A stretch of 64,000 nt of DNA from an uncultured Lentisphaerales bacterium (GCA_943788985.1 CALSSJ010000031.1:73261-137260); one strand, 5' to 3'; positions 6,653 through 22,818 are shown, numbered from the stretch's first letter. The notes: generated from the sequence alone by a model not told the origin. Numbers and translations are program-made.

Positions 6653-8662
6653 CGCACCGCCTCCACATCCAGCGCACCGATGCCGCTACCTTCTGCTTCT
6701 TCCGAAACCAGCAGCTCCTCGCCAAAGCGAAATAGTCGGGCGCTGTTGAACAGCACGATAAAGCTGCCGATGTTATGCAAAGCTGCGGCGATTAGAACCT
6801 TCAGCACAGAGTCGCGCATCCCGAGTGTATCCGCCAGCTGCCTGAGCTGGGCATCACCAAAAATGAACATCGCGATGCCCCCCCACGATCACCGCTACCC
6901 CCAGCACCAAGTTCTGTAGAATGGTTGTCCGTGTCTTACGGGACAGCCCGATTAACGTCGGGATGCGGCGCAAATCCGTGCTCATCAGCGCGATCGAGGC
7001 ACTGTTCAGAGCCACGTCGCTGCCAATAGCCCCCATGGCGATCCCAATATTTCCGGCGGCCAAGGCGGGCGCGTCATTGACGCCATCGCCAATCACCGCA
7101 ACCGTAGCCCCGCGTTTTTTCAACTCTTCGACGTAGGCCACTTTGTCCTGCGGTAGACACTCGCTGACCACGTCATCCATCTTCAGCCGGGCGCTCACCT
7201 GCTCGGCCACAGTCCGGTTGTCGCCGGTGACCATGCTGCAAAGCAACACACCGTTCTCGCGCGCCTGCTCAATCGCTTCAGCCGCGTGTTCGCGCACCGT
7301 GTCACGCATCCCAACCCAGCCCAAGACGCGAGAGCCATTAGCCACGTAGACCACGCTCATCCCGCTCTGCTCTTCGGCTTCCTCTTCCTTGCGCGGGAGC
7401 GTAATCTTATTCTCCTCCAACCACGTGCCGCGCCCCACCCGGATGACTCCGTTCGGCGTATGGGCAAGCACGCCTCGGCCCGGCACTTCTTCTGAAGACT
7501 CGGGCGACGTCCAGCTCACATTTGCGGTCTTCGCAAGATTTCGCAGCGCAATCGCAGCCGGATGATTACTGGCGGCTTCCGCGGTGACAGCGGCAGACAG
7601 CAACTCAGACAACTCAACACCTTCTGCTGGTGCCAGCTTCTTCACCGCCAGCACGCCGTGGGTCAAGGTCCCCGTCTTATCACAGACCAGAGCGTTGATC
7701 CCCGCAGCAGCCTCGATTTGCACCACGTCCTTGACCAGAATACCCAGCCGGGCCGCGGCCGCAATGGCCGCCACTGCCGCGGACGGCGTCGCGATCACCA
7801 AAGCGCACGGGCAGGCCATCACTAGGATCAAAACCACGCGCATCAGGTCGGCTGTGAAAAACCAGACGATCGCACTGACCATCAGAATGGTCGGCGTGTA
7901 ATAGCGCACGTACTGATCAATAATCCGCATGATTGGCGTGCGAGTCTTCTCTGCGGCCAAAATCAGGTCCCGCACCTTCCCCAACGTCGTGTCCTCACCA
8001 AGGCGAGTGACTTCCACCACGATCGCACCCGTCAGATTCTCGGTCCCGGCAAAGACCTCATCGCCCTGGCTCTTATCGACCGGCAACGATTCACCAGTGA
8101 TCGATGCTTGATTAACGGCCGACACGCCGCTGACGAGGGTGCCATCTACCGGAAAATTCTCACCAGGACGCACGCGAATTTTATCGCCGATCTTCAGTGC
8201 CAGCGCGGCAACCTCGGTCTCCGCGCCATCCTCCCCGAGCCGACGGGCCGTACTAGGGGCCATCTTCACCAAATCTTCGACAGAACGCATTGCGCCAATC
8301 GCCGTACGCTCCTCGATCAGGATGGCAGTCCACATAAAAAAGGCCACAATTCCGGCCTCCTGATACTTGCCAAGCACAAACGCGGCCAGAATCGCAAGCC
8401 CGACCAGTTCATTCATTAAGAAACGGCCGCTCATAATGTCGCTGATCGCGGTCTTCAGCAGTGGATAAGACAGGATGGCTGCCCCGGCGATCGCACAGAT
8501 CATCGAAGCGTAGGGCTGGTCGTCATGCACCAGCCATTGCGAAATCATAGAAGTCAGAACCAAAACGGCCCCGCACAGCGCCACGCCTACATGGACCGTC
8601 GGATGGCTGTGATTGCAGCCGCCGCAGTGCTCGTCCGCGATTCGTTCGTAACCTTTTCGCAT
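6649..8662 (-). CDS. Heavy-metal P1B-type ATPase (one frameshift near 6880)
   Basis: Motifs TGES, CPC, DKTGT, NHP, GDGVNDAP; N-terminal HCGGCNHSH. The last TMs (LHNIGSFIVLFNSARL) lie in ORF 6649..6870. Removing one base from the C7 run at 6878-6884 rejoins the frames. Confidence 0.9.
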
Positions 8663-8991
8663 ATATCCCCGATTATAGCCTCAGTCCTACCTCGCCTTCT
8701 AATATTCGCCACAAAGGGCGAAGTCATGTAAAAGCTGCAATCAACCGGTAATAATGCGTGCCCTAGTGGAATTCGCAACAGCCCCCCCCTGGATCTTTCC
8801 GGCTACAACCCATGCACCAATGGACACTCGGCGTACACCCTAGGGCATTCCTGGAACACAACTCTGCGCAAAATCGCCTCCAAATCCGCCACATCCCCCT
8901 AACCCACAACATCTTATGAACCATTCAGCACAACTTGGCACGAATGCTTCTTTCAAGCGATCCATCAACGCCACACACGGAGAAGCACACC

Positions 8992-10748
8992 ATGAATACT
9001 GCGCCAGAACCAACACCTGCTCTGCACCTCGACAGCATCCCGGGCTTGCCAAACGTTCCCATAGTTCCCTGCATTCAGAATCCACTAGAACGGCTCTTGG
9101 GCCTGGAGCGCTGCAATCAGGTGCTCGCCAAGATTCCGGCTGACAGAACCGGAACTGCCTTCGTCGCCGCCGCGCTCGAGCAATTGCAGATCGCGACAGA
9201 TGCAGCGGAGGCTGACCTAGCGAACATCCCGGAAACCGGCGGCGTGATGATTGTCGCCAACCACCCGTATGGTATGCTCGATGGCCTCCTCGTACTCGAC
9301 CTCATTGCCCGCAAGCGCAAGGACGTACGCTTCATGGGCAACGACGCTCTGGCCGCGATCCCACAGCTCGGCGACCTGCTGCTGGGCGTAGACCTCTGGA
9401 ACGGCGGCAAGCGCAGCAATGCCATGGCGCTGCGGCGTTCCATCCAATGGCTCCGCGAAGGCGGGGCACTCGTCGTCTTCCCCGCTGGCCGAGTCTCCGC
9501 CCCGCGTCTCGACCGCGCAGTTGTCATGGACCGTCCTTGGCAGCCCTCCATCGGCGGCATCCTGCGCCATGCCGGCTGCCCTGCCCTGCCCGTCCATGTG
9601 AGCGGCCAAGCCGGGCTAGTCACCCAGCTGGGTGGCCTCTTGAATCGCCACATCCGCCTCCTGGCGCAGCCGCATCAGCTCACCAGCAGTGCCAACCGCA
9701 CCTTTCAGATCCAGGTGGGCCATCCGGTCGATGCCAAACGTCTCGCCGCTTGCAAGGACGATCGCGACCGGAGCGAGTACCTGCAGTTTCGCAGCTACCT
9801 CCTCGCCGAGCGCGGCCGCACCGAGCGCGGGCCCTCACACGACAGATCAGCCCGAGCAGCCCATCGCGTCTCCCCGAGAGCGTAGCCAGCTGATTGCGGA
9901 GATCGCAGACCTCAGCCCGCTCTGCACCAAGGGCACTCGCGACGTTTATGTCACAACCGGCAACTATTCGCCGAACATCCTCCACGAGCTTGGTCGCCTT
10001 CGCGAACTGACCTTCCGCGAGGTCGGTGAGGGCACCGGCAACGCGCTCGACATCGACGACTACGACGATCACTGCGATCAGCTGCTCATCTGGGATCGCG
10101 AGGACCAGGAAATCGTAGGCGCCTACCGCTTGCGGGAAGTCAACGCCGACACAGACTCACGTGAGCTCTACTGCCACACGTCTGTACAAGCTCAAGCGCG
10201 GGTTCATGGGCCAGATCGGCCACGGCATCGAGCTTGGCCGCTCCTTCATCCAGCCATGCTATCAGCGCCAATTCAACTCCCTGCTCCTGCTCTGGCAGGG
10301 CATTGGTGCCTACGTCCAGCAGCGCCCCGGCGCCACCAAGCTCTTCGGCGCGGTCAGCATCAGCGCCGCGTACTCGCCCGCCTCGCGCCAAGCCATCCAG
10401 GAAGTCCTCGCGCACATCCGTACAGACAACCCGTTTGCGGAGTTCGCAACGCCACGCAATCCAGCGCGCTTCACCCCGTTGCGCCCGTTTCAGCGCGCAG
10501 CGCTCACCCGCTGGGGCTGCAGTGTCGAAGAACTCTCCGAGTGGATCGCCGACCTCGAGCCCAACCCCGACCTTCAGCACATTCCCGTCCTGATCCGCCA
10601 GTACGCTCGCCTCGGGGCAGTCTTCGCCAGCTTCAACGTCGATCCCGACTTTTCCTGCGCCATGGATGGGCTCATCGTCGTAGACCTCGAGCAGACCGAG
10701 CCACGCCAGCTCCGCCGCCTCTTCGGCAAGACCTGGTCGCTGACGTAG
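8992..10748 (+). CDS. Fused lysophospholipid acyltransferase + GNAT N-acyltransferase (OlsF-like / putative hemolysin family), two frameshifts
   Basis: ANHPYGMLDG and VFPAG (PlsC-type); then ELGRLRELTFREVGEG, DIDDYD, IVGAYR; then IELGRSFI, LLWQGIG, IPVLIRQY, FNVDPDF. Frame changes at about 9810-9840 and about 10181. Confidence 0.85.
10660..10738 (+). repeat. 79-bp direct repeat, copy 1 (3' end of the acyltransferase-GNAT gene)
   Basis: Matches 17107..17185 with 3 mismatches. Confidence 0.95.
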
Positions 10749-10999
10749 AGAACTCCGGATAGGCCGGCGGCTTGTCAGCAGTTAGGGCCCACGCGAAAAT
10801 AGCGTTCTCACCCCAGAGCGATGCCAGCAAAGCGCTCCAATGGCTCGGCGCAGGCCACCCCCGCTATCCGCCAAGAGCAATATGATGAAATATCGGCGCG
10901 TCCCTCGCCAAAGGCTGGTGACCGTGCCGGAACGGCAGCGAAAGCCGGCAACCTTCCTGGTCTGCAATGCCGATTCCCCACGGCGAGCAGCTCCCCTCC

Positions 11000-11198
11000 G
11001 CCCAGAGGGGCGACACATGTCCTGCCGGTGGCGTGAGCCCCCGGATCACCCTCCTCACCCTTGAGCCCGGCGGGCGACACCGGCATATGGGGAGGGGGGA
11101 ACGTTGTGCCGGCCACCGGCCTTTCTGCCCGCCGAGGTCTGCGGGGCGCCGCCCTGCGATGCCTTGCATCCTCGCGCTGCGGACTTCGCACCGGCAGG
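11000..11198. repeat. Degenerate GC-rich REP/BIME-like palindromic element
   Basis: gggcgacac occurs twice; cctgccggtg (11021-11030) is inverted with caccggcagg (11189-11198); contains ccggtggcgtgagcccccgg. Confidence 0.5.
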
Positions 11199-11208
11199 TG
11201 CTCCGACT

Positions 11209-11240
11209 GATGCAAATTGCCTGTCCCCACGCCGAAGGCC
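11209..11240 (-). repeat. Repeat family A (32 bp, consensus GGCCTTCRGCTWGGGGACAGGGGATTTGCATC), reverse copy
   Basis: gatgcaaattgcctgtccccacgccgaaggcc is the reverse complement of the 14601 copy with 3 mismatches. Confidence 0.85.
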
Positions 11241-11968
11241 TATGGTGAGTCGTTACCACCGCCAACCGCCAACCGCCAAGCAAACGGTGATTGAATCAGT
11301 TGAGTGCCCCTTGATGGCACACTGAAGAGACAACAATCAAGTGCTGGCAAATCAGGGCCGAGAGCGTCTGCATCCCTGCCAGGCTGTCAACCTGCTCTAC
11401 ACTTGGCAGGGCGGGAGCTGTAAGCGCAATGAGGATCGCCTCTCGCCACTAAGTTAAGGGCTACTGGTGTTTTGCTGCGCGAGATGTGTTGGTTGAGGGT
11501 GAGTGATCGGCGGGAGTTGTCAGCGGTGGAAGTTGCGCTCGCGGGGGCGACTGCAAGGCACGCATTACAAGCCCAAACCGCTGGAGGGCCTCGAAATCTA
11601 CGGTCAAGACGTTGCGTCGACCGGGAGACGGCCAAGAAGCGCATCGCTGCGTGGACGCATGACTTGGTAGCGCGATGATTGGTCTCTTCCGCAAGGCCGA
11701 ACCTCCTAGCTGGCGGCACCTCTGGCAAGCGCCATTGGATGCAATACAACGCGCTATATGTCCCGGAAAAATCACAACATGAAGCATTGAGTCGGGCCTG
11801 ATGGTGGCGATGAAGTAGTGTCTTGCGGTAGCTGACCACCTGCTCCTGTTACACCTCTGAGTTGTTTAAAACACCAATAGGCTACTTGCTTCCCCCCGTC
11901 ACTGCGCTACCTTTGAAAAAGTTTGAATAGTAGTTCCTCCTCGATGAAATTAAATAGAGATTGGACCA

Positions 11969-12427
11969 ATGGTCAAAACAGCCCGCCAACTTTTTTTCCC
12001 ACTGATTCTGACGATCATTTTGCCGTTGATGCCTGGGTGCGCGACCCGCTCGAAGAACATCTCCGCATCTTATGTTTCCCCAATAGAGTATTCTCATCTT
12101 GATTGCGACCAGATACGACGCGAGTTGGTTCGTGTTAACCGCCGACTCACAGATATTTCCGGAAAGCAGAACAAGGAGGCAACGAAAGACGCGGTTGCGC
12201 TCGGCGTGGGGCTTGTTGTTTTCTGGCCTGCTCTGTTTTTCATGATGAGTTCCGGAGAGAAGGAGGAAATTGCTCGTCTTAAAGGGAAATACGAGGCACT
12301 GGAAACTATCGCCATCGAAAAGAGATGCGGATTTTCCGACGAGCTAATCGAAGCTCAACAGCAGCGTTCTGAAATGAAACGGAAAAGTTTAGATAAGAAG
12401 ACACCAGCAGGGACTGAAGGTAACTAG
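11969..12427 (+). CDS. Hypothetical lipoprotein
   Basis: Signal peptide with lipobox-like LMPGC; ASYVSPIEY..LDCDQI; internal hydrophobic segment VGLVVFWPALFF. Confidence 0.75.
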   Translation: MVKTARQLFFPLILTIILPLMPGCATRSKNISASYVSPIEYSHLDCDQIRRELVRVNRRLTDISGKQNKEATKDAVALGVGLVVFWPALFFMMSSGEKEEIARLKGKYEALETIAIEKRCGFSDELIEAQQQRSEMKRKSLDKKTPAGTEGN

Positions 12428-12748
12428 ATTAAGATCGTCGTGGGGAGGGCGTCGTGGGGAGGGCGTCGCGGAAGTCCTCACTGCCTTACGGGAGCAACAC
12501 GCAGACGCCGGCCCGTTCAGGCAGGGCGTCAGGAACCGTCATCGGGTCTAAGAAAATCAGGAGTGAACAATGTGATGTTCATTCCTCGGACTAAACACCC
12601 AGGATCCGAGGATCTGCGCTTGCACTCTACGATACTTACTGAAGGTTAACAGCGAAAGAACGGGCACAATTATTAAGCGACGGGAAATTTCTGTTTTTCC
12701 TCGACTCGCTTGAGAACAACCAGCAACGAAGAAAATAGTGGTATTCGA

Positions 12749-13270
12749 ATGAAGAGGGTCGATCAACGTGTTGCCTGCATTTTCTTTGGGCTTGCAGTAT
12801 TGCTCCCTGCCCAATATGCCGCCGAGTCGCCCAAGCCGGACTTGGCCGTTATTGAATTTGGTGAGAAAACGCTAAAGCTAAACAAACATGAGATCAAGTA
12901 TCCCTTCGCAATGGACGAAATTATTGCGGCAATCGGCAAGCCCGACCGTTCAGCGTCGGTAGCCAACGTCGTTCATACATGGGATCAATATGGGATAGTT
13001 GCTTTTCAAAAAGCACCCGGGGAGCCGATTCACGCATTGCAGATTATATACTGTAATGATACCCCCCAATTCGCCCCAGAAAAACTGTTCACCGGTACTG
13101 TATTGATCAAGGATACGCAGTTCACTCCCTCCTCGGATCGACGCGACCTTTTGCGTGCCGGATTCGCTCAGGATAGGCTCCTGACAGATTACTATACGGC
13201 AAAAATAGATGGCGTGTCACTAGTCGCAAAATACAAGCGTATAATGTACAATCTTGAGATTTCCCGTTAG
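12749..13270 (+). CDS. Hypothetical exported protein
   Basis: MKRVDQRVACIFFGLAVLLPAQYAA signal-like N-terminus and protein-like composition. Confidence 0.65.
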   Translation: MKRVDQRVACIFFGLAVLLPAQYAAESPKPDLAVIEFGEKTLKLNKHEIKYPFAMDEIIAAIGKPDRSASVANVVHTWDQYGIVAFQKAPGEPIHALQIIYCNDTPQFAPEKLFTGTVLIKDTQFTPSSDRRDLLRAGFAQDRLLTDYYTAKIDGVSLVAKYKRIMYNLEISR

Positions 13271-13425
13271 GCTCCAATTCATTCCAAGCCGCCTGCTCTT
13301 CACGAGATTCAGGACTGTCCGGACCCGCTAAGCGTGCAGGGGATGGGGCAACGCTAGCCCGCACTCAGGTAATGCCGAATGGTGCTTCCCTGCTCGCGTT
13401 AATCCGAAAAACAAGTAGCACCAAG

Positions 13426-13875
13426 ATGAAATGGACGCCAATACACGCCATTGGAACCGGAGCGGTCTTGCTTCTTTTCTCATGCGCACACTCGACGCCC
13501 TCTACGCGTGCTTCAATCGAGGCATCCGCACCGGCGCGGGCAAGGGCGGCCGCAGGAGGGCCTGCGGTCATCTTCCGGGGCGAAGCTAGCATGCCTCGCT
13601 CAATGATAGATCGCGGCAAGTACTATCTACTGCGGGTGACCAGGACCGGAAGTGTCTATGAAACGCTACACAAGCGAGTTGGCCCGGGATACGTGGGCTA
13701 CACAAAGTGTGAGATCGACTACAGCCGCCAGGTGATGCGAACGATCGGATACAGCGAAGTATCTGGTCTTGAGATTGGCTATTCGCCTTCCCAGTGGTTT
13801 GATTTGGTGCCGGGGTCGAGCAAGTCCGATATGTACAATTACGTCCTCGAGAATGTCCTGCCGGCATATGACTAG
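13426..13875 (+). CDS. Hypothetical lipoprotein
   Basis: MKWTPIHAIGTGAVLLLFSC lipobox-like start; aromatic-rich globular C-terminus. Confidence 0.65.
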   Translation: MKWTPIHAIGTGAVLLLFSCAHSTPSTRASIEASAPARARAAAGGPAVIFRGEASMPRSMIDRGKYYLLRVTRTGSVYETLHKRVGPGYVGYTKCEIDYSRQVMRTIGYSEVSGLEIGYSPSQWFDLVPGSSKSDMYNYVLENVLPAYD

Positions 13876-13968
13876 CTTAGCTGGGCAGCGTGGGAGCGAA
13901 CGAGGCAGAATCAGGACTCGGTTGTGGTCAGCGGTTATTGATCTGAAGAACTGAAGGAGGAGAACAGA

Positions 13969-14382
13969 ATGTTTGGTTTGGGTGGATGTAACCGAGCGGG
14001 GAGAACGAAACTGCCTTTGCTTATGGTCAGTGTGTTCTTTGTTTCAGGTTGCTCGACAACCCAAGAAGAGTTGGTCCGAGGCGAGTTGGCTGAGACTTGG
14101 CAAATATCTGCACCAATGGAGGATGTTTTTCGACGATACAAGAACTACGCGGGAGAGCATTTTAGCGGAGGCGACTTCCCGTTTGGTGGAGGCTACCGCG
14201 CAACGGGACATTTCTACGGGTCGCGAGCTGAGCTGTCCGTCAAGGTGGACGGGACTATCTCCGCCGGAACCACATACCTGCATTTCGAGCTTCAAGAACG
14301 GAGTGGAGGTACTCAAGTTCGGTGTTGGTGGTATAACCGGTTCTGGAAGAAGAATGTGGAGAAGTTTCGGAAGCTATTCTGA
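13969..14382 (+). CDS. Hypothetical lipoprotein
   Basis: Strong RBS (AAGGAGG) before the ATG; lipobox-like FFVSGC. Confidence 0.7.
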   Translation: MFGLGGCNRAGRTKLPLLMVSVFFVSGCSTTQEELVRGELAETWQISAPMEDVFRRYKNYAGEHFSGGDFPFGGGYRATGHFYGSRAELSVKVDGTISAGTTYLHFELQERSGGTQVRCWWYNRFWKKNVEKFRKLF

Positions 14383-14525
14383 GGCACTCGTTATACGGCG
14401 GCACTCCAGTAATGACGTCGTCGGTGGAAGGCGGCTTTCGGCGTGAGCACACTGTATTTTCATCCCAGAGAAGAACACTGAACACGGTGCGTCGATGGGA
14501 GCTCTAGCCAGTCTGGGACAGAAGA

Positions 14526-14664
14526 GGCCTTCAGCTAAGAGACAGGGGATTTGCATCACATTGCGCTTGACCGGAGGGCGCTACAGAGGCAGAACGTAGG
14601 GGCCTTCGGCTTGGGGACAGGGGATTTGCATCACATAGCGCTTGACCCGAGGGCGCTACAGAGG
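14526..14664 (+). repeat. Two tandem 64-bp units (period 75 bp), each repeat A plus a GTAG-type hairpin
   Basis: 14526..14589 and 14601..14664 are near identical. The minus strand of the distal half of copy 2 reads GTAGCGCCCTCGGGTCAAGCGCTA. Confidence 0.9.
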
Positions 14665-14702
14665 TAGCTTGCATCAAATAGTCTTTCATTGAGAGGTTCC
14701 CT

Positions 14703-15677
14703 ATGCGAACAGCAAGGCTTCGGCCCAACCGGAAGGAAGGCAGCTACCTTCATCTCTATCAACGAGCCTGTGGATTTCGCTCGGATCGAATTTTCGGAGA
14801 TGTCGAGCGCCAGTTCATGCTCAATCTCATTGGCAAAGTTTCGGCGTTGTATACCCTCGAAATCATTGCTGTGACGGCAATGTCTAACCACGTGCATATC
14901 GTTGCCTTCGTGCCGGGGGAGCCGCCGACACCGGAAGAGACTTGCCGACGTTACAACGCATTCTATGCTGGCATGAAGCCGGAATTGATTGTCAACTCGC
15001 CTGACTTGGCGCGCATTCAGAAGCGTCTGGGGGACTTCAGCGTATTCATGGGGCATTGGCAACAGAGCTTCACCTGCTGGTTTAATCGCACGCGCAAGGA
15101 ACAGCGGAGGGGGCGTCTGTGGGGGGACCGATTCAAGCACACAATCCTGGAGGGTCGTGAGGCGCTTTGGACTTGCGTGCAGTATGTGGAGATGAATCCT
15201 GTCCGTGCTGGGATCTGCGAGCAGCCGGATGACTACCGGTTCTGCAGTTGGGGGATTCGCTGCGGGAGCGGCAAGCATCCCTATGCCAGGAACTTCCTCC
15301 ACCACTTACGCCGGTCGCTGGGAGATCGGGCAGGCGATTGGGCCATGCCAGATCTCGAGGCAGAATTTCGCTCGGATTTGGCTAGGAAGTTGACTGCAGA
15401 GCTTGGAGCAAGCGGCGAGGAGATTGCAGCTGCCAGTGACCTAGCACGCGCGAAGGTTCCTGTGACGCTGCAGCTTACCCGTCGGGCCCGCTATTGGACC
15501 GATGGGGCCGTGATCGGCTCAAAGCAATTTGTGATGGAAATCACAGCTGAGGCACTTGGCACGGAGCGGGCGAAGAAGCGACGATACGGGCGCGGCTTGA
15601 TTGCCGACGGCACTGCCCTCTTCAGTATGCGCCAACTTCGAACGGTGGCTCCCTGCTCCGATCAAGATCTCGTCTGA
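14703..15677 (+). mobile_element. REP-associated tyrosine transposase (RAYT, IS200/Y1 HUH family)
   Basis: HUH motif MSNHVHIV, GRLWGDRFK, catalytic-Tyr motif YVEMNPVRAGI, DYRFCSW; flanked on both sides by repeat A. Confidence 0.9.
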
Positions 15678-16027
15678 ACATCGTTCTATTCAAGGCTGCC
15701 ATGCTTGGGCGCAAAGCCGCTACCTGCAGATCACATTGTCTCGAGCGAAAAGCCTTCGGCGGAAGCCCCGCTGCTCGCATAGAGCCCTCTCATCGAAGCA
15801 CAATCTGAACCAAGCTACGCCTGAACCGCCGTCTGGTGGAAGCTAATATGCGTTGAAATCGCTGCCCGTTACCGATCCTCGGTCAGTGACTCGCATTGCT
15901 CAAGCGAAGCTGGTTTTCGCGGATTCGGCCAGATCAGCAGGCCTTCGTAGGCCTTATTACTTGATTCGCCGCCCCGGGCCTTGGTAACCATCGATTCCCA
16001 AGAATCAGATCCTTGTCTTGCGTTTTC

Positions 16028-16206
16028 GATGCAAATCTCCTTCCCAAGGCCTTCAGCTTGGGGACAGGGGATTTGCATCACCGCACCAGCCCTGCATCTC
16101 GACAGGTAGGAGGCCTTCGGCTAAGGGAGGTAGCGTTTTCGATGCAAATCCCCTGTCCCCAAACCGAAGGCGGCGAAGGCGGCTCCTTTGTCCCCAAGCC
16201 GAAGGC
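16028..16206. repeat. Cluster of repeat A copies in alternating orientation (REPIN/BIME-like)
   Basis: Reverse partial 16028-16050, forward 16048-16079, forward partial 16112-16127, reverse 16141-16171, reverse partial 16189-16206. Confidence 0.9.
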
Positions 16207-16281
16207 GGCTCCTCCCGTTTATTGATTCTCGGATAAATTGATGAGAACTTGGCCGTCCGCAGAACTAGGCCATGATCTGCC

Positions 16282-16452
16282 CTATGGCTGCAGCGTCTTC
16301 TTACGCTTGCTTGGGACTGGGATGATCCGCTCGCCGGATGCAGCTTGAACACTACGTAAATCTTCGACGATGGCCTCTAGGTTATAATTAAACTTAGCCG
16401 CATGTTCTTGACGGTTCTTGCGAAGCTCAGCGATAATGTGGTCATCAGTCAT
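16282..16452 (-). CDS. Small protein coupled to the PIN gene (putative antitoxin/partner)
   Basis: MTDDHIIAELRKNRQEHAAKFNYNLEAIVEDL; ATGA overlap with the PIN gene's stop. Confidence 0.75.
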   Translation of the reverse strand: MTDDHIIAELRKNRQEHAAKFNYNLEAIVEDLRSVQAASGERIIPVPSKRKKTLQP

Positions 16453-16928
16453 GAAGATTCGCCTCCTAGCAGTTGTTCCGGTGTGCAGATAATAGGGCAT
16501 GAGTAGCCCGCTTTGTCAACAGTGCGAATGACGTGTGGGCGGATATGGGCATTGGCGATGTGCTTGCAGTTCCACGTTAGCAAAAAGTCCATGCAATGGA
16601 CCGCCGCGATGGCGATATGCAGAGCATCTTCTGCATACTCCACTGGGATTGCATGCGCGCTCACAAATTCGTCAGCAAGGGTTTCAATGGACTTGTCGAT
16701 GTCTAAGCGGGGAACGCCAGCGATTGCGGCCATGCGTTCTGCTGCGGCGTTTCTGTCACCTCGCGACGCCTCGAGTTCGACGAGCCTCGAGACATAGAGA
16801 TCGTATTGCAGCCGCGTCTGCCACCAGTCCTGGGTCAGCTGCTGACGAGCTGCTGCGACAACGTCGCGACTAGGTCTGGCAGCGTGATAGCTGATGACAC
16901 TGGTTTCGAGATAGACTCTTGATTTCAT
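16449..16928 (-). CDS. PIN-domain (VapC-like) ribonuclease
   Basis: VYLETSVISY, VELEAS, EDALHIAIA, LLTWNCKHI, ICTPEQL. Confidence 0.9.
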   Translation of the reverse strand: MKSRVYLETSVISYHAARPSRDVVAAARQQLTQDWWQTRLQYDLYVSRLVELEASRGDRNAAAERMAAIAGVPRLDIDKSIETLADEFVSAHAIPVEYAEDALHIAIAAVHCMDFLLTWNCKHIANAHIRPHVIRTVDKAGYSCPIICTPEQLLGGESS

Positions 16929-17074
16929 CCCCGAAATATGGATCTCGAATAGGCTCTTGGCTACTGTAGGATTCGGTATTCTGCGGGATAGCAATCATGT
17001 CGGCGACCCGCCGGCGCTCCCAGTCGGAAGGCAGCGATGATAGTGATCAAGACCTTGAACAAGGAGGCCTTCAA

Positions 17075-17106
17075 GGCCTTCAACTAAGGGACAGGGGATT
17101 TTGATC
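17075..17106 (+). repeat. Repeat family A, degenerate forward copy
   Basis: ggccttcaactaagggacaggggattttgatc, directly abutting the duplicated gene tail. Confidence 0.8.
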
Positions 17107-17201
17107 CCATGGACGGCCTCATCGTCGTCGACCTCGAGCAGACCGAGCCACGCCAGCTCCGCCGCCTCTTCGGCAAGACCTGGTCTCTCCCCAGAAAATG
17201 A
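17107..17201 (+). repeat. 79-bp direct repeat, copy 2, extended to its own stop (orphan 3' end of the acyltransferase-GNAT gene)
   Basis: Encodes MDGLIVVDLEQTEPRQLRRLFGKTWSLPRK* versus ...KTWSLT* in the intact gene. Confidence 0.95.
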
Positions 17202-17224
17202 CTGGGAGCGCTGAGAAAAAAGCT

Positions 17225-17776
17225 CTACACAGAGAGCTCACAGAGGACACAGAGCCGAGCACATAGATTCAAACAGACATCTTCTCCTCTTTTCTCTGTG
17301 ACCTCGGTGCTATCTGTGGTAAAAAATCCTCCCCCTCTCCCCCTGTCCCTCCTGCGTCTTATTCCTGAGATCCGCAGATTCCGGCATCCAGCCGTCCAAG
17401 CCGTCAGGGCCACCAGCGAGTCCGGACGTGGAATCGCACAGTAGCCGAGGATTCCGAACGCCCCAACGAGGAGCACGAGCCCCACGATCGCCGTCTCACG
17501 AATGCCGTGCAGCCAAACGATCGTGCCCCCGTCGTATGGCCGGACCGTATGAAATGGTTTTCCAGCTGCCTCTGCGCTCCGCCATCCATAGAGCTGGGAG
17601 GACAAGCTAAAGACGGGAAAATTCTCAGCAATCCGGTCCCAGCCCTTCTCCCGGCCGGGTGAGCTGCAGATTTCGAAGTAGTCAGAGTTCACGCGCCCGC
17701 AAAATGCCGTAAGGACGAGCCCCAACAAGATCCCGATAACCGCTACCACCACTAGCCAGCTACGATTCCTACTCAT
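17225..17776 (-). CDS. Hypothetical membrane protein (C-terminus reads through repeat B)
   Basis: GGAGGGGGG RBS and two hydrophobic helices; the last ~35 aa are translated repeat sequence. Confidence 0.6.
   Translation of the reverse strand: MSRNRSWLVVVAVIGILLGLVLTAFCGRVNSDYFEICSSPGREKGWDRIAENFPVFSLSSQLYGWRSAEAAGKPFHTVRPYDGGTIVWLHGIRETAIVGLVLLVGAFGILGYCAIPRPDSLVALTAWTAGCRNLRISGIRRRRDRGRGGGFFTTDSTEVTEKRGEDVCLNLCARLCVLCELSV
17228..17318. repeat. Repeat family B long hairpin, copy 1
   Basis: Arms cacagagagctcacagaggacacagag and ctctgtgacctcggtgctatctgtg. Confidence 0.85.
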
Positions 17777-17861
17777 ACTCGCCCCCCTCCATTGCCATCA
17801 TCCGTCCCGGTGAGTGCCTGACTACGATCATTTCTCATGGCGCCGGGAAGAATCTTCTACG

Positions 17862-17950
17862 ACAGAGAGCTCACAGAGGACACAGAGCCAAACAACTCCA
17901 AGTGTGAGACATTTCTTCTCTTTTCTCTGTGTCCTCGGTGAGCTCTCTGT
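17862..17950. repeat. Repeat family B long hairpin, copy 2
   Basis: 26-bp arms acagagagctcacagaggacacagag and ctctgtgtcctcggtgagctctctgt, one mismatch. Confidence 0.9.
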
Positions 17951-17958
17951 AAAATCCG

Positions 17959-18930
17959 TTAGCCCCAGTCAATCACTGGAAGCTGCGCGACGAAGATAGC
18001 CGCGAGGATCACGAACAAGCACAGTCCCAGCCCCAAGGAATAGACCACACCAAGGGCGTCGGCCCGATGCGCCTTGCTGCGCAGCAAGGCGCCGTCGTGG
18101 CACCCTCTATATACCATCAGCCTCCTCGTGATCGTGCCCGGACCGACAAAGGTCGTCACCACCAAGATTCCGAGTGGTATCAGTTCAACTCGACCAAAGA
18201 GATCGATTTTTTGCTGCACAAGTATCGCCAGCAGCGCTGCGACTCCCAGTCCCCAGAGTGCGGCAGCAATCGCAAAATTCCGGCCGTTCCTGTCCGCCTC
18301 TTTCAGCGATATCGGCGTCACCGGCTTGCGTGCCACATTGTCCTCAAGCGAGGCCCGCAGCGTGCTGTCATACAGATCTGCGGGGACGCAGATGATCAGT
18401 TCAGAGAGCCAATTTCTACCGTCAAGGGTGGGACGTCGACTCCCGGCGCGACCTTCCCTGCATTGCTCTGCATCAATTTTCGCCCATTCCCGCAATTGAA
18501 AACACAGGTCGCGTGCACCAGCGGGATCCGCCGAATTAGCCTCTACCTGAAAGCCAGCAAAAGCCGCCCACGGATAGAACCTATCTGGTTCGTCAAGCAT
18601 TGGCAGCAGCAGTCCCTCTGTCGTAACCTTACCGGCCTCGCCACGCGGCCAAAACGGCAAGCTGCCCAGCATCCAAGTAAGCCATTGCGCACACACCCCC
18701 ATCAGAACAACTCCCCCCAGTGTTCCCCAAAACCGTTGTGACAGTGCCTCCACACCGACGCGGTCCCAGAACCAGCTGAAGCCCCAGAACAACAGGGCAG
18801 CGATGCTGATCAGCCTCAGCGAACCCCAGACATTGGCGCGAAACAGCTCTCGCATTTTCTCCCTGTAGACGGCCCGGGGCACCTGCCACTCGGCCAGCAC
18901 CTCCATATCGCCTGTCCTCTTGTCCGTCAT
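17959..18930 (-). CDS. Hypothetical multi-pass membrane protein
   Basis: 323-aa ORF with about five hydrophobic segments, 10 bp downstream of the sulfatase. Confidence 0.7.
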   Translation of the reverse strand: MTDKRTGDMEVLAEWQVPRAVYREKMRELFRANVWGSLRLISIAALLFWGFSWFWDRVGVEALSQRFWGTLGGVVLMGVCAQWLTWMLGSLPFWPRGEAGKVTTEGLLLPMLDEPDRFYPWAAFAGFQVEANSADPAGARDLCFQLREWAKIDAEQCREGRAGSRRPTLDGRNWLSELIICVPADLYDSTLRASLEDNVARKPVTPISLKEADRNGRNFAIAAALWGLGVAALLAILVQQKIDLFGRVELIPLGILVVTTFVGPGTITRRLMVYRGCHDGALLRSKAHRADALGVVYSLGLGLCLFVILAAIFVAQLPVIDWG

Positions 18931-18940
18931 GCGACCAGAA

Positions 18941-20359
18941 TCATTGTTCCAAATTTTTAGAGAGCTGCGCCTTTAGCTGGGCCACGAGCTCAGGATGCGC
19001 CGGGGCGATGTTCACCGTCTCCTTTTCTCGAGACGTGTGATCGTAAAGCTCGATGTGCCCATTCTTGTGGGCAATGAGTCGATAGGTATCCGTACGAATC
19101 GTGGTCGCTCGACTCTGATAGGCAAGCGCCAGATGCCCCTCGACGGTGGGGTCTTGCAGCATCGCCTGCAGCGAAACACCCTGCGCAAAGTCTGGAGTCT
19201 CCACGCCAGTCAAGTCGCACAGCGTTGGAAAGATATCCAGCGTGCTCACCACGGCATTGCTCTTGCCCCCCGCCTGCTTCATGTCCGGAGCCACCATAAT
19301 CAGCGGCGAACGCAACGCCTCTTCAAACAGGCTTTGCTTGCCCCAAATGCCATGCTCGCCAAGGTGCCAGCCATGGTCGCCCCAGAGAACGATCACGGTA
19401 TTCTGGTCCGCGCCGGTCTCCTTCAGCTTGGCTAGGATGTCGCCAACCAATTTGTCGGCATAGCTGACGCACGCCGCATAATGCCGCCGCACGGCCTCCG
19501 CAAACGCGAGATCCTGTCGTGGATCTCTGCCCCAGCGGTTGTACTTCATGAATTCGCCGGATCCGTGCCAGGTCGTCTTTCCTTCGGGCTTTGTGGCGTG
19601 AGGAGTCGGCGGCAACGCAACGCCGTCATAGAGATCCAAATAGTGTTTTGGGGCACCAAAAGGCAAGTGGGGTTTCAGCAGACCAATCGCCAGAAAAAAC
19701 GGTCTGTCAGCCGCGGCCAGCTCTTCGAGTTGCTTGATTCCTTCCTCAGCGATCAGCCCATCCGGGTAGATTGAGTCTGGCCCCACAGCCGCCTCAAAAA
19801 GAGCAAATTCCTTCGCGTTCTTTGGCCGCGCCTTCCCATGCGCCAAGCCGTGCATAGCACCGACTGGCGTCTTCCATACGCCGACCGGCATCAAGTGCCG
19901 ATCCCAGGCATTTGGCATTTCCACCTTCGCCGCGTCATTCCAGCCCGGCCCACCGCGACCGCCAGGGTGATGCGACACCTTGCCCACCGAGACCGTGGTA
20001 AACCCATGCGAACGAAACCATTCTGGCATGCTCGGCGGAACGCGATCCGGGGATTTGGTAACTTCCTTGGCCCGCTGAAACAGCGCGGCGTTACCTGCTG
20101 CGCCGTAGCGCCCTGTCAGCAGCGTGCAGCGGGATGGCCCGCAGCTGGGAGCGTTGACATAGTGCCGTTGGAACGCACGGCCCTGGGCCGCCAACCGGTC
20201 AATGTTCGGAGAATGAATGTGCGACGCGCCAAAGCAATTGAGCTCTGGCCGTAGATCGTCAATGCACAACAGCAGTACATTTTTGGGCGGTTCCGCTGCT
20301 CCCCCTACGCATGCAGAGAGGCAGGCCCCGAGAATAGTGGCTATGAATAAACGGCTCAT
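18941..20359 (-). CDS. Sulfatase (S1, iduronate-2-sulfatase-like)
   Basis: Signal peptide, [37 protein letters not shown]. Confidence 0.92.
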
Positions 20360-20432
20360 GGCTTTTCCTTTCTGTTCTCAATCGGCTGAGTGGCACTGTA
20401 GCAGCCCGCGCCCGGTGACTGCTTGAAGTCCA

Positions 20433-20504
20433 GCCTCATCGTCGTAGACAGACAGCGCTGGGAAAAATCTTCCACGACAGAGAGCTCACCGAGGGCACAG
20501 AGCC
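20433..20504 (+). repeat. Eroded third copy of the gene-tail / repeat B junction
   Basis: gcctcatcgtcgtagac, then agcgctgggaaaaa, then one arm of repeat B. Confidence 0.7.
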
Positions 20505-20663
20505 TCACACAGGAAACCGTAACGCTTCTCGTTCGTCTCAATCCTGCCCCTTGGGCCGCCCCCTTGAGCCCATGGAGATTCCCGGCGTGCAGCTTGCACG
20601 CGCCTGCACCGGTGGCAGAATATCGGGCACCCAACCCAAGGCATCTGACAGCAGGCAGGAAGC

Positions 20664-21221
20664 ATGGCAAACGTATTGGTATTGTATCACTCTGTCACAG
20701 ACTGCACAGCGCAGATGGCGCGGTACGTCGCGGATGGGGCCGCTAGCATCAAGGGCATGGACGTGAGACTTGTCGAGTTGGGCGCCGCCACTGCAGAGGA
20801 CGTCGTTTGGTGCGATGGCATCGCAGTTGGCTGTCCCACCCAGATTGGCACAGCGTCTTGGCAAATGAAGAGGTTCTTCGATGAAACGCTGGTAGACCAG
20901 TGGGCCAAGATTGATGGCAAGTTTGGCTGTGCCTTCAGTTCCTCCGGCGGTTGGGGTGGGGGCGCAGAGTTAACCTGCCAAACCATCACCAATATGCTCA
21001 TCAACTACGGATTTTTGGTGTTCGGCGTAGTCGAGTACGTCACGCAAACCCACACCCTGCACTACGGCGCTGTGACGGCGAAAGCACCGCGTGACGAGGC
21101 CTCTCAGCAGGCCTGTTTTAAACTGGGCGTACGCCTGGGCGAGTGGCTCGGCGTCTATGTCGACCGTGATGCAGATCTGCATCCCTTGGCAACCCGAGTA
21201 AGCGCACTGCCAAGCAGTTGA
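20664..21221 (+). CDS. Flavodoxin / WrbA-like NAD(P)H-dependent oxidoreductase
   Basis: VLVLYHSVTDCTAQMA, DGIAVGCPT, GKFGCAFSSSGGWGGG. Confidence 0.85.
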   Translation: MANVLVLYHSVTDCTAQMARYVADGAASIKGMDVRLVELGAATAEDVVWCDGIAVGCPTQIGTASWQMKRFFDETLVDQWAKIDGKFGCAFSSSGGWGGGAELTCQTITNMLINYGFLVFGVVEYVTQTHTLHYGAVTAKAPRDEASQQACFKLGVRLGEWLGVYVDRDADLHPLATRVSALPSS

Positions 21222-21381
21222 TCCGTCACTGCGGATGCCGGAAGATCTTTCCCGCCCGCCGTCACAAGCAACGGGACCGTGTCAGGCCTGCGCAATACGG
21301 AAGAGGACGGGAACGAGGAAACTCGGCCTTTTTTGGGGTAAAGGTGGGGAGGCATGGAGATTAGGGCCCCCGAGCCGACCT

Positions 21382-22818
21382 TCATTTCTTCTTCTTCTTG
21401 GCAACAGCTTCTCTCGTCACTTCGGGGCGCGGGAATGCCTTCAGGTAGCTATCGAGCTTTGCCTTCATCCTGGTGCGTAACGCCGCGTATTCCGGATTTC
21501 TCGCGAGATTGGTGACTTCAGCTGGATCCCTCTCCAGATCGTAGAGGCATTCGTAGGGGCCATCTGGCTCGTCATAATAGATGGCAAACTTGTAGCGCGC
21601 ACCGCGCACCCCGTACCAGTTGTTGTAGCGGGAAAACTTGTGCTCGCAGTAGACCTCTTCGCGCCAGCCAGGGGAGTCTTCTCCCTTGAGCAACTTCACC
21701 AGCGACTCACCTTGATACACCGCAGGTTGAGCCAGCCCCGCCCACTCAACAATCGTCGGTGCGATATCGAGATGCGAGCCAAGTTCAGCAATCACCTGGC
21801 CGCGCCGCTCTTGGGGAAGCGTGGGGTCATAGACGATCAATGGCACCTGCAACGACTGCTCGTAGTGGTTCCACTTGCCAGCCAGCCCACGATCGCCCAT
21901 CATGAACCCGTTATCGCCGGTGTAGACAATCACCGTATTGTCAGCCAGCCCTGCGGCTTCCAACTCCGCCAGAATGCGGGCCACCGCATTGTCAATCCCC
22001 GTGATCATTCGGAAATAGGCCCGCATGTTTACCTGGTACTTCTCGGGCGTATCCCAGCGCCAAAAATAGCGCGCCCGCGACAACTCTTTCGGATTCTTCA
22101 AAAAGCCGGGCAGCGCTCTGAAGTAGCTTTCATCATCCAGCTTAGCCAGCGGGATGAAGAGGTCATCGTAGAGCCCGTCGGCTGACTCCGGCCATTGGAA
22201 GTGGAAGCCGGGCCGCTGATCTCGGTCCTCCGCATGTGAGGCATTAAAGCTCAGCGACAGGCAGAATGGCGTATCTGCTGGAGTGGTCTTGATGAATTCG
22301 ATCGCCGCATCCGCACACAGATCAGTCTCGTGGCGCAGCGAGCCATCCGGCATCTTCTTAAGATAGGGGCTTCGGTTGTACGGCTTGAAGAAGTCAAACT
22401 GCGCCTTCTTATCGTCCTTCGCATAGCGGAACCCATACTTGCCGGTGAACCCCGTCCGGTAGCCATTGGCTTTAAGATAGGCAGGATAGCTCGTGGCAAT
22501 ATACCGCGCTGCCACTGCTGGCTCGCCAAAATTGTAGCCATGCGAGCGCTGGGAGAGCCCGGTCATGATTGTGGCCCGGCTGGTCGCGCAGATCGGTGTC
22601 TGGCAGAAGAAGTTTGCAAAACGGGCTCCGTTCGCCGCCAGCCGATCGAGTGTAGGCGTTTGGATTAGTTCGTTGCCATAGCAACCCAGCACATCGCTCC
22701 GCTGGTCATCGGCAAGCAGAAAAATGATATTCTTCGGGATCACAGCTGATGGCACCTGCGCGAATAGCAGCGGGACCGCGACCAGCGTCGCACAGAGGTA
22801 AATTGACAAACGATTCAT
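21382..22818 (-). CDS. Sulfatase (S1 family)
   Basis: Signal peptide, ADDQR, CATSRATIMTG, GDNG, YEQSLQVPL. Confidence 0.92.
   Translation of the reverse strand: MNRLSIYLCATLVAVPLLFAQVPSAVIPKNIIFLLADDQRSDVLGCYGNELIQTPTLDRLAANGARFANFFCQTPICATSRATIMTGLSQRSHGYNFGEPAVAARYIATSYPAYLKANGYRTGFTGKYGFRYAKDDKKAQFDFFKPYNRSPYLKKMPDGSLRHETDLCADAAIEFIKTTPADTPFCLSLSFNASHAEDRDQRPGFHFQWPESADGLYDDLFIPLAKLDDESYFRALPGFLKNPKELSRARYFWRWDTPEKYQVNMRAYFRMITGIDNAVARILAELEAAGLADNTVIVYTGDNGFMMGDRGLAGKWNHYEQSLQVPLIVYDPTLPQERRGQVIAELGSHLDIAPTIVEWAGLAQPAVYQGESLVKLLKGEDSPGWREEVYCEHKFSRYNNWYGVRGARYKFAIYYDEPDGPYECLYDLERDPAEVTNLARNPEYAALRTRMKAKLDSYLKAFPRPEVTREAVAKKKKK

What the first reader, a model, noticed from the sequence alone, without database searches (positions are those of the whole stretch)
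10660..17201. 6.4-kb island bounded by a duplicated gene 3' end, with no integrase
Seen: 10660-10738 recurs at 17107-17185. The three differences are all synonymous (GAT/GAC, GGG/GGC, GTA/GTC), the next two codons also differ synonymously, and each copy has its own stop (SLT* versus SLPRK*). Known: integrating elements restore a target gene by supplying a replacement 3' end. Inference: incoming DNA carried a functional allele of the tail. No Tyr/Ser recombinase lies inside; the only DNA-cutting/joining enzyme is the RAYT.
Basis: partly seen in the sequence, partly recalled or inferred. Interest (0 to 1): 0.75.

Follow-up and report, generated by a model that had tools for sequence, protein, structure and literature searches.

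The report
Displaced gene tail beside variable islet
The last 90 bases of a lipid-synthesis gene occur twice, 6.4 kb apart, because strain-variable DNA carrying its own version of the gene's end pushed an older version downstream; this is a fairly ordinary scar of gene exchange, with one odd detail: the joint lies exactly at the end of a short mobile repeat.

Summary
The repeat is real: 10660-10741 and 17107-17188 match at 78 of 82 bases. All 5 differing codons are synonymous (chance about 8e-4), and each copy has its own stop. The left copy ends an OlsF-like two-domain acyltransferase gene. The right copy is an orphan that starts at the very last base of a REP-like element.

Independent contigs carry the same arrangement, so it is not a misassembly. 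No tyrosine or serine recombinase lies in the island or on its contig.

Other assemblies show the locus is hypervariable:
- One contig has the SLT-type tail plus 24 bases, then a 155-base spacer, then the right flank from 17965. It lacks the island, the orphan and the next gene.
- A second lineage shares the gene and its 460-base trailer up to a REP, then differs.
- One intact 586-residue protein ends in the orphan's SLPRK tail.

So both tails are working alleles. The SLT tail is the common one, and the variant breakpoints are not at the repeat.

My best reading (0.45) is recombinase-free 3'-end displacement: homology in the gene, and a non-homologous joint at a REP end. Integrase in trans, a Campbell-type crossover or RAYT action remain possible.

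The two frameshifts in the window's gene are absent elsewhere.

The parts
6854..8662 (-). Left flank: P-type (E1-E2) ATPase gene. It reads 602 aa here but 670 aa in 4 of the 6 other cluster members.
   Evidence: Pfam PF00122/PF00702; cluster lengths.
8992..10748 (+). geneA: OlsF-like bifunctional acyltransferase (PlsC-like O-acyltransferase plus OlsB-like GNAT N-acyltransferase). In the window it is split over three frames by single extra bases near 9828 and 10180. It is intact (584-586 aa) in other assemblies.
   Evidence: Pfam PF19576, PF01553, PF13444. NCBIfam NF052615 OlsF scores 382 bits, below the cut-off of 620. Frames. Intact L020 copy. The extra bases are absent in X2/X7/X8 contigs and in L020.
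10660..10741 (+). Left copy of the repeat: the working 3' end of geneA. The gene ends …WSLT* at 10748.
   Evidence: Over the stretch shown, this DNA is identical in L020 and, as far as that contig reaches (from 10670), in L018.
10749..11207 (.). High-GC (67%) non-coding trailer of geneA. It is shared with lineage L020, where it carries more substitutions and several indels. The first 24 bases are also shared with L018.
   Evidence: GC. L020 comparison. No Pfam or Rfam hit.
11208..11241 (-). Solitary REP-like element. The window and L020 diverge at its inner end; in L020 it is also interrupted by another repeat.
11242..11968 (.). Stretch with no convincing gene.
   Evidence: ORFs without family hits; no Rfam match.
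11969..14382 (+). Low-GC cargo of four small exported proteins: a 152-aa lipoprotein-like protein, a 173-aa DUF7738 protein (12749-13270), and two Cys-lipobox proteins (13372-13875 and 13969-14382).
   Evidence: Translations. PF24880 E=1e-16. Their clusters are nearly invariant, with 1-2 member sequences on 3-6 contigs. The lipobox reading comes from the sequence and my own knowledge.
14433..14667 (+). Array of three REP-like copies upstream of the RAYT gene.
14703..15677 (+). RAYT-like Y1 (HUH) transposase, 324 aa. HVH and Y-x3-NPV motifs are visible in the sequence.
   Evidence: PF01797 23.5 bits (cut-off 23). NF047646 52 bits (cut-off 80). The unit 14526-16037 has a 93% copy at C31:47106-48602 and partial copies on C40 and C36. 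Contig depth is 3-5 times the flanks. The motif names are recalled.
16020..16206 (.). REP cluster downstream of the RAYT gene. It includes an inverted REP pair (16048-16079 and 16141-16171) that folds as a REPIN-like hairpin.
   Evidence: DNA fold -43.3 kcal/mol, z = -7.2.
16282..16928 (-). PIN-domain (VapC-like) gene (16449-16928, 159 aa) with an overlapping 72-aa downstream ORF (16282-16500). Possibly a toxin-antitoxin pair, but this is not established.
   Evidence: PF01850 E=1.5e-4, 22.8 bits, just under the cut-off of 23.6. The 72-aa ORF has no family.
17075..17106 (+). Solitary REP-like element. Its conserved terminus (…GATC, consensus …GCATC) abuts the first base of the orphan.
17107..17201 (+). 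Orphan 3' end of a second geneA allele (…WSLPRK*), cut off at its 5' side by the REP.
   Evidence: The same tail ends the intact protein P0125. The same REP|orphan arrangement is seen in L019 and in the read-through protein P0143.
17225..17776 (-). 183-aa membrane protein gene, flanked by a different palindromic repeat (17229-17323 and 17862-17954). It is absent from variant L018.
17959..18930 (-). geneB: 323-aa membrane protein, convergent with geneA. The L018 breakpoint lies in its last codons (…DWG* here, …DWSGG* in L018).

Best explanation
The orphan at 17107-17201 is the displaced 3' end of a second, functional allele of an olsF-like lipid-synthesis gene.

Proposed history. A resident gene of the …SLPRK* type was largely overwritten by incoming DNA from a related strain. 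That DNA carried the commoner …SLT* allele, its own 460-base trailer, and a REP-segmented string of accessory modules: four small exported proteins, an IS-like RAYT unit and a PIN gene. The left side was resolved by ordinary homologous recombination in or upstream of the gene. The right side was a non-homologous joint between the terminus of a REP element and the resident gene, 95 bases before its stop codon. This is homology-facilitated illegitimate recombination, the process called 'C-terminal displacement' in rhs and T6SS loci. No site-specific integrase is needed.

Since then the interval between geneA and geneB has stayed a hypervariable spot, with modules swapped or lost at REP boundaries.

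Shown: the repeat; its synonymous-only divergence; the existence of both tails in intact genes; the variants; the REP-exact joint; the absence of a recombinase.

Inferred: the direction of the event, the homologous left crossover, and the nature of the right joint.
For: 1. All 5 differing codons are synonymous, p about 8e-4. The copies therefore diverged as working genes, not after a duplication in place.
2. P0125, an intact 586-residue protein, ends in the orphan's SLPRK tail. 11 of 12 cluster members with a C-terminus end in SLT.
3. The SLT haplotype (GAT-GGG-GTA … TCG-CTG-ACG-TAG plus 24 bases) is identical in three structural contexts: the window, L020 and L018 (from 10670, so GTA onward). 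This is simplest if it is a natural allele rather than a recombinant attL.
4. L018 lacks 10773-17964 and has 155 unrelated bases instead, so its breakpoints are not at the repeat.
5. Against L020, the gene differs at about 51 of 1,800 positions. The trailer carries more substitutions plus several indels (about six, the largest 34 and 12 bases), as expected for non-coding DNA inherited together with the gene. The trailer's GC (67%) is close to the gene's (64%) and unlike the cargo's (52.5%).
6. The homology of the orphan starts at the base after the conserved REP terminus. The flanks of the 14 REP cores found in the assembly differ beyond that terminus, apart from the copies in the arrays before the RAYT genes.
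7. No recombinase lies in the 49 island ORFs or on contig C31.
8. The mechanism has precedent: passages read in PMC5361080 propose homology-facilitated illegitimate recombination for T6SS effector displacement and mention orphaned 3' regions in rhs loci.
Against: - The structure is topologically identical to the product of site-specific or Campbell-type integration, and P0125 is just what an empty attB would encode.
- P0125 is known only as protein from one contig, so the three left-hand synonymous sites that would decide the matter cannot be read. That contig could also be an assembler's jump across the 56-base identical core.
- L018 is a single contig that ends 13 bases before the core.
- L020 (95% identical) shares the trailer with the window, while L018 (99.9% in the flank) does not. 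L018 may therefore be a derived deletion rather than an ancestral state.
- A random illegitimate joint would not be expected to fall exactly on a REP terminus. That precision hints at an enzyme acting on the REP.
- The same island (0-1 differences) sits next to a different geneA allele in run X2. This shows recombination in the gene but does not give the direction of the event.
Confidence: 0.45

Rival explanations
1. Classical integrative element. A circular element whose attP mimics the last 82+ bases of geneA and supplies a new stop (SLT*) integrated by a tyrosine or serine recombinase. That recombinase has since been lost or acts in trans. The two copies are attL and attR, and P0125 is the empty attB.
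For: - Direct repeats at a gene's 3' end with a 56-base identical core and a replacement stop.
- An intact gene with the orphan-type tail exists.
- The cargo has foreign GC and includes a PIN gene.
- Three tyrosine recombinases exist elsewhere in the assembly, on C10, C17 and C20.
Against: - No recombinase or detectable remnant lies in the island or on the 137-kb contig.
- Under this model the SLT tail and trailer would be element DNA. Yet they are the majority allele (11 of 12), occur in L018 without the rest of the island, and are more diverged between lineages than the gene.
- The trailer occurs once in the assembly.
- The island has no match in the plasmid, phage or viral collections.
Confidence: 0.2
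2. Campbell-type integration without an integrase. A circular DNA (10660-17106 joined end to end) had captured a geneA tail and trailer from an earlier host. It integrated by one RecA-dependent crossover inside the 82-base homology, which duplicated that homology.
For: - It gives exactly the observed topology and explains the missing integrase.
- The 56 identical bases exceed the minimum usually quoted for RecA (recalled, not tested).
- The trailer's gene-like GC (67% against 64%) fits DNA captured from beside geneA.
- The right joint, REP|tail, has the form of a circle junction.
Against: - It makes the same haplotype prediction as the integrase model, so it faces the same difficulty with L018 and the majority SLT allele.
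- No circular form or 'goes back' joint between 17106 and 10660 is listed for the four runs laid, but contigs cannot show rare forms.
- A single crossover on 56-82 bases is inefficient.
Confidence: 0.15
3. RAYT/REP-catalysed event. The HUH transposase cut at the REP terminus (…GCATC|) and at a pseudo-site in geneA (…CTGCG|CC). It then moved or joined the REP-ended segment into the gene tail, and REP ends serve generally as the joints of the cassette-like modules.
For: - The orphan begins at the base after the conserved REP terminus.
- The window/L020 breakpoint also lies at a REP end.
- 6 of the 14 REP cores in the assembly lie in this island, and two of them are solitary copies at module borders.
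- The RAYT-like gene keeps HUH and Tyr motifs (motif names recalled).
- The RAYT unit is multi-copy, so probably active.
Against: - I know of no RAYT shown to move kilobase cargo (recalled). My one search on RAYT, REPIN and genomic island listed none by title or abstract.
- The left border of the duplicated stretch (10660) has no REP.
- The two outer REPs face outward, opposite to the REPIN orientation.
- Contig breaks at repeats are expected for assembly reasons, so only two structural breakpoints count.
Confidence: 0.1
4. Duplication in place (target-site-like or slippage) followed by drift, or an assembly artefact.
For: The copies are direct and short. The window's assembly does contain single-base errors or variants nearby, at 8951, 9828, 10180, 11007 and 11355.
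Against: - Five of five differences synonymous has chance 8e-4.
- An intact gene uses the orphan's tail.
- Contigs from three other studies and JGI contig L019 carry the same REP|orphan joint.
Confidence: 0.03

Closest known systems
C-terminal (3'-end) displacement in rhs, CDI and T6SS effector-immunity loci, ascribed to homology-facilitated illegitimate recombination. Passages read in PMC5361080. The papers by Jackson et al. 2009, de Vries and Wackernagel 2002, and Prudhomme et al. 2002 were seen only in its reference list.
   Same: A conserved 5' gene body receives a new 3' end with new downstream DNA. The old 3' end is shifted downstream as an orphan. No recombinase is involved. The locus becomes an array of strain-variable modules.
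   Different: The gene here is a housekeeping-type aminolipid synthase, not a polymorphic toxin. The two tails encode the same protein except for the last 1-3 residues, so nothing functional is swapped. The orphan overlaps the new tail by 82 homologous bases. The joint lies at a REP terminus.
Integrative genomic islands and IMEs inserted in the 3' end of a gene, with att direct repeats that restore the gene (general knowledge, recalled).
   Same: Direct repeats made from a gene's 3' end, a replacement stop codon, cargo of deviant GC, a PIN module, and an apparent empty-site allele (P0125).
   Different: There is no integrase in the island or on the contig. The variant without the island breaks outside the repeat. 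The supposed element-borne tail is the majority allele and is older than the cargo.
REPIN-RAYT systems (PMC3116915, PMC3337134, bioRxiv 10.1101/119735; only the search listing and abstracts were seen).
   Same: A Y1/HUH transposase gene flanked by its own roughly 32-base repeats. Inverted pairs form long hairpins.
   Different: The abstract of 10.1101/119735 describes RAYTs as typically single-copy per genome. The abstracts of 10.1101/119743 and 10.1101/2022.05.22.493013 describe REPINs as occurring up to hundreds of times and as mostly vertically inherited. Here the RAYT unit is multi-copy (two copies at 93%, plus fragments, and 3-5 times depth). The repeat is rare (14 cores in 4.58 Mb) and clusters around the RAYT copies and this island.
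Replacement-type flexible genomic islands of marine bacteria, exchanged by homologous recombination in conserved flanking genes (recalled, not read here).
   Same: Co-occurring marine strains more than 99% identical in the flanks carry different DNA between the same two core genes (window, L018, L020).
   Different: A clean double crossover leaves no orphan. Here one side left a displaced gene tail.

Membership tests
Integrase-driven integrative element (genomic island / IME) | A site-specific recombinase gene inside the element | tested here: not met
   None of 49 ORFs of 50 aa or more has a recombinase family. PF00589 is found only on C10, C17 and C20; PF00239 is found nowhere. The assembly is 83.6% complete.
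Integrase-driven integrative element (genomic island / IME) | Flanking direct repeats (attL/attR) derived from the target | tested here: met
   82 bases, 78 identical, with a 56-base identical core.
Integrase-driven integrative element (genomic island / IME) | An empty site in relatives whose junction lies within the repeat | tested here: inconclusive
   Protein P0125 has the predicted attB-type C-terminus, but its DNA and neighbours could not be fetched. The only DNA variant without the island (L018) breaks at 10772 and 17965, outside the repeat.
Integrase-driven integrative element (genomic island / IME) | An excised circular form or excision junction | not testable with these tools
   Only contigs, not raw reads, were available for the four runs laid, and contigs drop rare forms.
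[quoted passage not shown]
   SLT* closes the gene and the SLPRK* orphan lies 6.4 kb downstream. Both tails occur on intact proteins.
3'-end displacement by homology-facilitated illegitimate recombination | A non-homologous joint on one side only, usually at a microhomology | tested here: inconclusive
   The joint REP-terminus|CCATGG is sharp. The parental sequences are unknown, so microhomology cannot be scored.
REPIN-RAYT system | A Y1/HUH transposase of the RAYT type | tested here: inconclusive
   PF01797 23.5 bits (cut-off 23). NF047646 52.3 bits, below its cut-off of 80. HUH and Tyr motifs are seen in the translation (motif names recalled).
REPIN-RAYT system | The gene is flanked by its cognate repeats, with inverted pairs forming hairpins | tested here: met
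   REP arrays at 14433-14667 and 16020-16206. Hairpin of -43.3 kcal/mol, z = -7.2. The second RAYT copy has the same layout.
REPIN-RAYT system | Abundant dispersed repeats and a single-copy RAYT (criterion taken from the abstracts listed) | tested here: not met
   14 REP cores in 4.58 Mb, 11 of them on one contig. There are two RAYT copies at 93% plus fragments, and depth is 3-5 times the flanks.
OlsF (bifunctional ornithine lipid synthase) | An N-terminal O-acyltransferase plus a C-terminal OlsB-like N-acyltransferase, scoring above the equivalog cut-off | tested here: not met
   The two-domain architecture is present (PF19576/PF01553 plus PF13444). NF052615 scores 382 bits against a cut-off of 620. 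It is OlsF-like, and the substrate is not established.

The most novel reading that the evidence does not exclude
REP termini are the working joints of a cassette-like hypervariable locus run by a multi-copy RAYT-type HUH transposase. The enzyme cuts at …GCATC| and joins REP-ended, kilobase-sized segments to other DNA, including the coding tail of a host gene. On this reading, the REP|gene-tail joint at 17106/17107 is the fossil of a RAYT-made circle or insertion junction. That would make RAYTs agents of island assembly rather than only domesticated REP-maintenance enzymes.
Probability: 0.1. Interest if true: 0.75.

Novelty: new member of a known kind. Interest (0 to 1): 0.35.

Why it matters
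Many islands without an integrase are simply filed as 'decayed'. Here, population data from metagenomes show that a duplicated gene tail, which looks like an att-site pair, more likely records replacement of one allele by another together with its downstream baggage.

The case gives a concrete and cheap discriminating test: the three synonymous sites left of the core in the SLPRK allele. It separates integrase or Campbell-type integration from recombinase-free displacement.

The base-exact coincidence of the joint with a REP terminus is a small but testable hint that RAYT-type enzymes or their repeats create recombinogenic ends.

Practically, the deposited genome's olsF-like gene and neighbouring ATPase look broken. 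They are intact in other assemblies of this species, so they should not be scored as pseudogenes without checking reads.

Tried and rejected
1. Empty site in related genomes. DNA searches of 40 relatives (same order or class; none from the same family is held) found only weak matches to the gene at 70-78% identity and nothing for the right flank. A scan of genome contigs with the degenerate tail pattern found nothing. The protein-based scan returned 49 loci, all at 45% identity or less and too distant for synteny.

2. Mobile-element identity. There was no match of 10749-17106 in the plasmid or phage collections, and no tail pattern in viral contigs.

3. RNA families. The Rfam E-value scan of 8500-18500 gave only two chance miRNA hits on a palindrome.

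4. Excision, circle or empty-site joints in Logan contigs. None linking 10659-10741 with 17107-17188 is listed for X2, X7, X8 or X15. Contigs drop rare forms, so this says nothing either way.

5. Coverage gap. X15 shows depth 0 to 0.36 in the nine bins from 11159 to 14317, while the RAYT, PIN and orphan parts are covered.

6. Loose ends at 11008/11049, 14667, 16156 and 17840/17889. I read these as other genomic copies of short repeats or of the RAYT unit, not as variants of this locus (one search shows such copies).

7. Linking genes to the same foreign contig by equal contig length. This suggests that contig 53061 holds ATPase, geneA and a RAYT, and that contig 32031 holds geneA and a PIN fragment. 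It is only a fingerprint, not proof.

8. A second RAYT locus (C31:46979-48602) was inspected for a similar orphan gene tail. None was seen.

9. Earlier notes of this scan held nothing for this place.

10. No structure or complex prediction was run, because none would bear on the question.

Full report
**1. The observation**

The repeat is there. Window 10660-10741 recurs at 17107-17188 with 78 of 82 bases identical. BLAST of the whole 4.58-Mb, 48-contig assembly finds the gene once and its tail only at these two places.

In the gene's frame the two copies share 27 codons. Five of them differ and all five are synonymous. Since 59 of the 243 possible single-base changes in this stretch are synonymous, five out of five has a chance of about 8e-4. 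After …GKTWSL the left copy reads T-stop and the right copy PRK-stop. A 56-base core is identical in both copies.

**2. What the repeat belongs to**

The left copy is the end of a gene, called geneA here (8992-10748). It has a PlsC-like acyltransferase domain and an OlsB-like GNAT domain. NCBIfam's OlsF model scores 382 bits, below its cut-off of 620, so I call the gene OlsF-like.

In the window the gene runs through three frames. However:
- Contigs from other samples lack one base at 9828/9832 (X2, X7, X8) and at 10180 (X2).
- A JGI contig (L020) encodes an intact 584-residue protein.
- Seven members of the 90%-identity cluster are full length, 584-586 aa.
- Further single extra bases in the window at about 8951, 11007 and 11355 are also absent elsewhere.
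- The neighbouring ATPase is 602 aa here but 670 aa in 4 of the 6 other cluster members.

I therefore regard the frameshifts as probable assembly errors or a peculiarity of this one genome, not as a property of the locus.

**3. What lies between the copies**

- 10749-11207: a 459-base non-coding trailer with 67% GC, like the gene's 64%.
- 11208-11241: a solitary 32-34-base REP-like element on the minus strand.
- 11242-11968: about 700 bases without a convincing gene.
- 11969-14382: four small exported or lipoprotein-like genes, one of them DUF7738. GC over 11242-14432 is 52.5%, against 57-60% for the contigs.
- 14433-14667: an array of REP copies.
- 14703-15677: a 324-aa RAYT-like Y1 transposase.
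- 16020-16206: more REPs, including an inverted pair that folds at -43 kcal/mol (z = -7.2).
- 16282-16928: a PIN-domain gene with an overlapping 72-aa ORF.
- 17075-17106: a last solitary REP on the plus strand.

The orphan starts at the base after this REP's conserved terminus. Beyond that terminus the flanks of the 14 REP cores in the assembly differ, apart from the copies in the arrays before the RAYT genes.

**4. Recombinases**

None of the 49 ORFs of 50 aa or more in 10749-17106 hits a recombinase family. Six-frame searches find PF00589 at three places (C10, C17, C20), none on the 137-kb contig C31, and PF00239 nowhere. The assembly is 83.6% complete, so a trans-acting enzyme cannot be excluded.

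The RAYT unit (14526-16037) has a 93% copy 40 kb away on the same contig and fragments on C40 and C36. Its contig depth is 3-5 times the flanks in all four runs laid. It therefore behaves like an insertion sequence.

Its repeat is rare. There are 14 cores in the assembly, 11 on C31 and 6 in this island.

**5. Is it an assembly artefact?**

No. Contigs of three runs from three studies bridge the REP|orphan joint, and others run from the core into the right flank. JGI contig L019 equals window 16043-26078 at 99.6%. A read-through protein in another assembly (P0143) translates the orphan and the REP on the opposite strand.

**6. The population shows a hypervariable locus**

One scan of metagenome contigs with a degenerate tail pattern returned three loci.

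- L019 has the window's arrangement.
- L018 is 99.9% identical to the window over 9.8 kb of right flank. It reads window 10670-10772 (SLT tail plus 24 bases, 100% identical), then 155 unrelated bases, then window 17965 onward. It therefore lacks the island, the orphan and the 183-aa gene. Its right breakpoint lies in the last codons of geneB.
- L020 is 95.3% identical over 8355-11234. It shares the gene, the identical tail and the trailer up to the REP, then continues with different DNA.

Within the gene, L020 and the window differ at about 51 of 1,800 positions. The trailer has more substitutions and several indels. The trailer therefore looks like old, vertically inherited non-coding DNA rather than a recently spread element arm.

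Among the 15 members of the geneA protein cluster, 12 include the C-terminus. Eleven end in SLT. One, the intact 586-residue P0125, ends in the orphan's SLPRK. The cargo proteins are nearly invariant and are seen on few contigs.

**7. Mechanism**

Site-specific integration, a single homologous (Campbell-type) crossover of a circle that had captured a gene tail, and homology-facilitated illegitimate recombination of linear DNA all produce the same structure. That structure is a gene body, a new tail, an insert and then the old tail.

They differ in what the 'empty' allele should look like. Crossover inside the core predicts left-copy bases before the core and orphan bases after it. Displacement predicts orphan-type bases throughout. 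I could see P0125 only as protein, so this test remains open.

What favours displacement:
- The SLT haplotype, including 24 bases beyond the stop, is identical in three different structural contexts.
- It is the majority allele.
- Its trailer is old.
- The one variant without the island does not break at the repeat.

What speaks against a plain random illegitimate joint is its base-exact position at a REP terminus. With the window/L020 breakpoint at the inner end of another REP, this suggests that REPs or the RAYT supply the recombinogenic ends.

My estimates are:
- displacement, 0.45
- integrase in trans or lost, 0.2
- Campbell-type crossover, 0.15
- RAYT-catalysed event, 0.1
- in-place duplication or artefact, 0.03

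**8. Comparison with what is known**

The nearest described process is C-terminal displacement with orphaned 3' regions in rhs and T6SS effector loci. It is attributed to homology-facilitated illegitimate recombination (passages of PMC5361080 read). The differences here are three: the gene is a lipid-synthesis gene, the swap changes only the last one to three residues, and the joint is at a REP.

The locus fails the defining test for an integrase-driven island, because it has no recombinase. It also differs from typical REPIN-RAYT systems as the abstracts listed describe them, where the RAYT is single-copy and the repeats are abundant.

The runs that hold the stretch are marine or estuarine metagenomes from nine studies.

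**9. Verdict**

It is too simple in taking the repeat as the island's borders and the left tail as the import.

This is a new example of a known kind of recombination scar in a strain-variable locus. Interest is moderate to low, apart from the REP-exact joint.

Noticed in passing
window 8951, 9828, 10180, 11007, 11355 and gene 6854-8662: The window carries single extra bases that contigs of other samples and L020 lack. They split the olsF-like gene into three frames. The neighbouring P-type ATPase is 602 aa here against 670 aa in 4 of the 6 other cluster members. These are likely assembly or polishing errors, or a strain-specific decay confined to this stretch.
   Followed up: partly
window 17229-17323, 17862-17954, about 20455-20510: A second, unrelated palindromic repeat family (about 26-40 bases, inverted pairs 96% complementary) brackets the 183-aa gene and recurs near 20.5 kb. 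Its translation supplies the C-terminal …CVLCELSV of the 183-aa protein and of an ORF at 20356-20670. The L018 breakpoint lies about 10 bases to the right of one copy.
   Followed up: no
G000 C31:46979-48602 (26 kb upstream of the window start): A second RAYT unit, 93% identical, is preceded by four tandem REP copies. Partial copies lie on C40:9761-11001 and C36:129240-129793. A RAYT-like gene in several copies is unusual, according to the abstracts seen.
   Followed up: partly
L020 2925-3140 and G000 C12:62830-63071, C12:112453-112721, C15:86625-86905: In lineage L020 the REP at the end of the trailer is interrupted by a repeat of about 150-200 bases. That repeat has several copies at 75-83% identity in the window's genome, so it is a MITE-like element.
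   Followed up: no
protein P0127 (341 aa, on a 1,486-base contig of another assembly): Here geneA is interrupted after …TKGTRDVY by unrelated sequence. This is either a further structural variant of the locus or a chimeric contig.
   Followed up: no
window 16282-16928: The PIN-domain gene is followed, not preceded, by a small overlapping ORF (72 aa, no family). If this is a toxin-antitoxin pair, its gene order is reversed.
   Followed up: no
window 11008-11049 and G000 C22:177257-177315: A stretch of about 40-60 bases in the high-GC trailer recurs on contig C22 at 85% identity. It produces loose ends in the contigs of X2 and X15.
   Followed up: no
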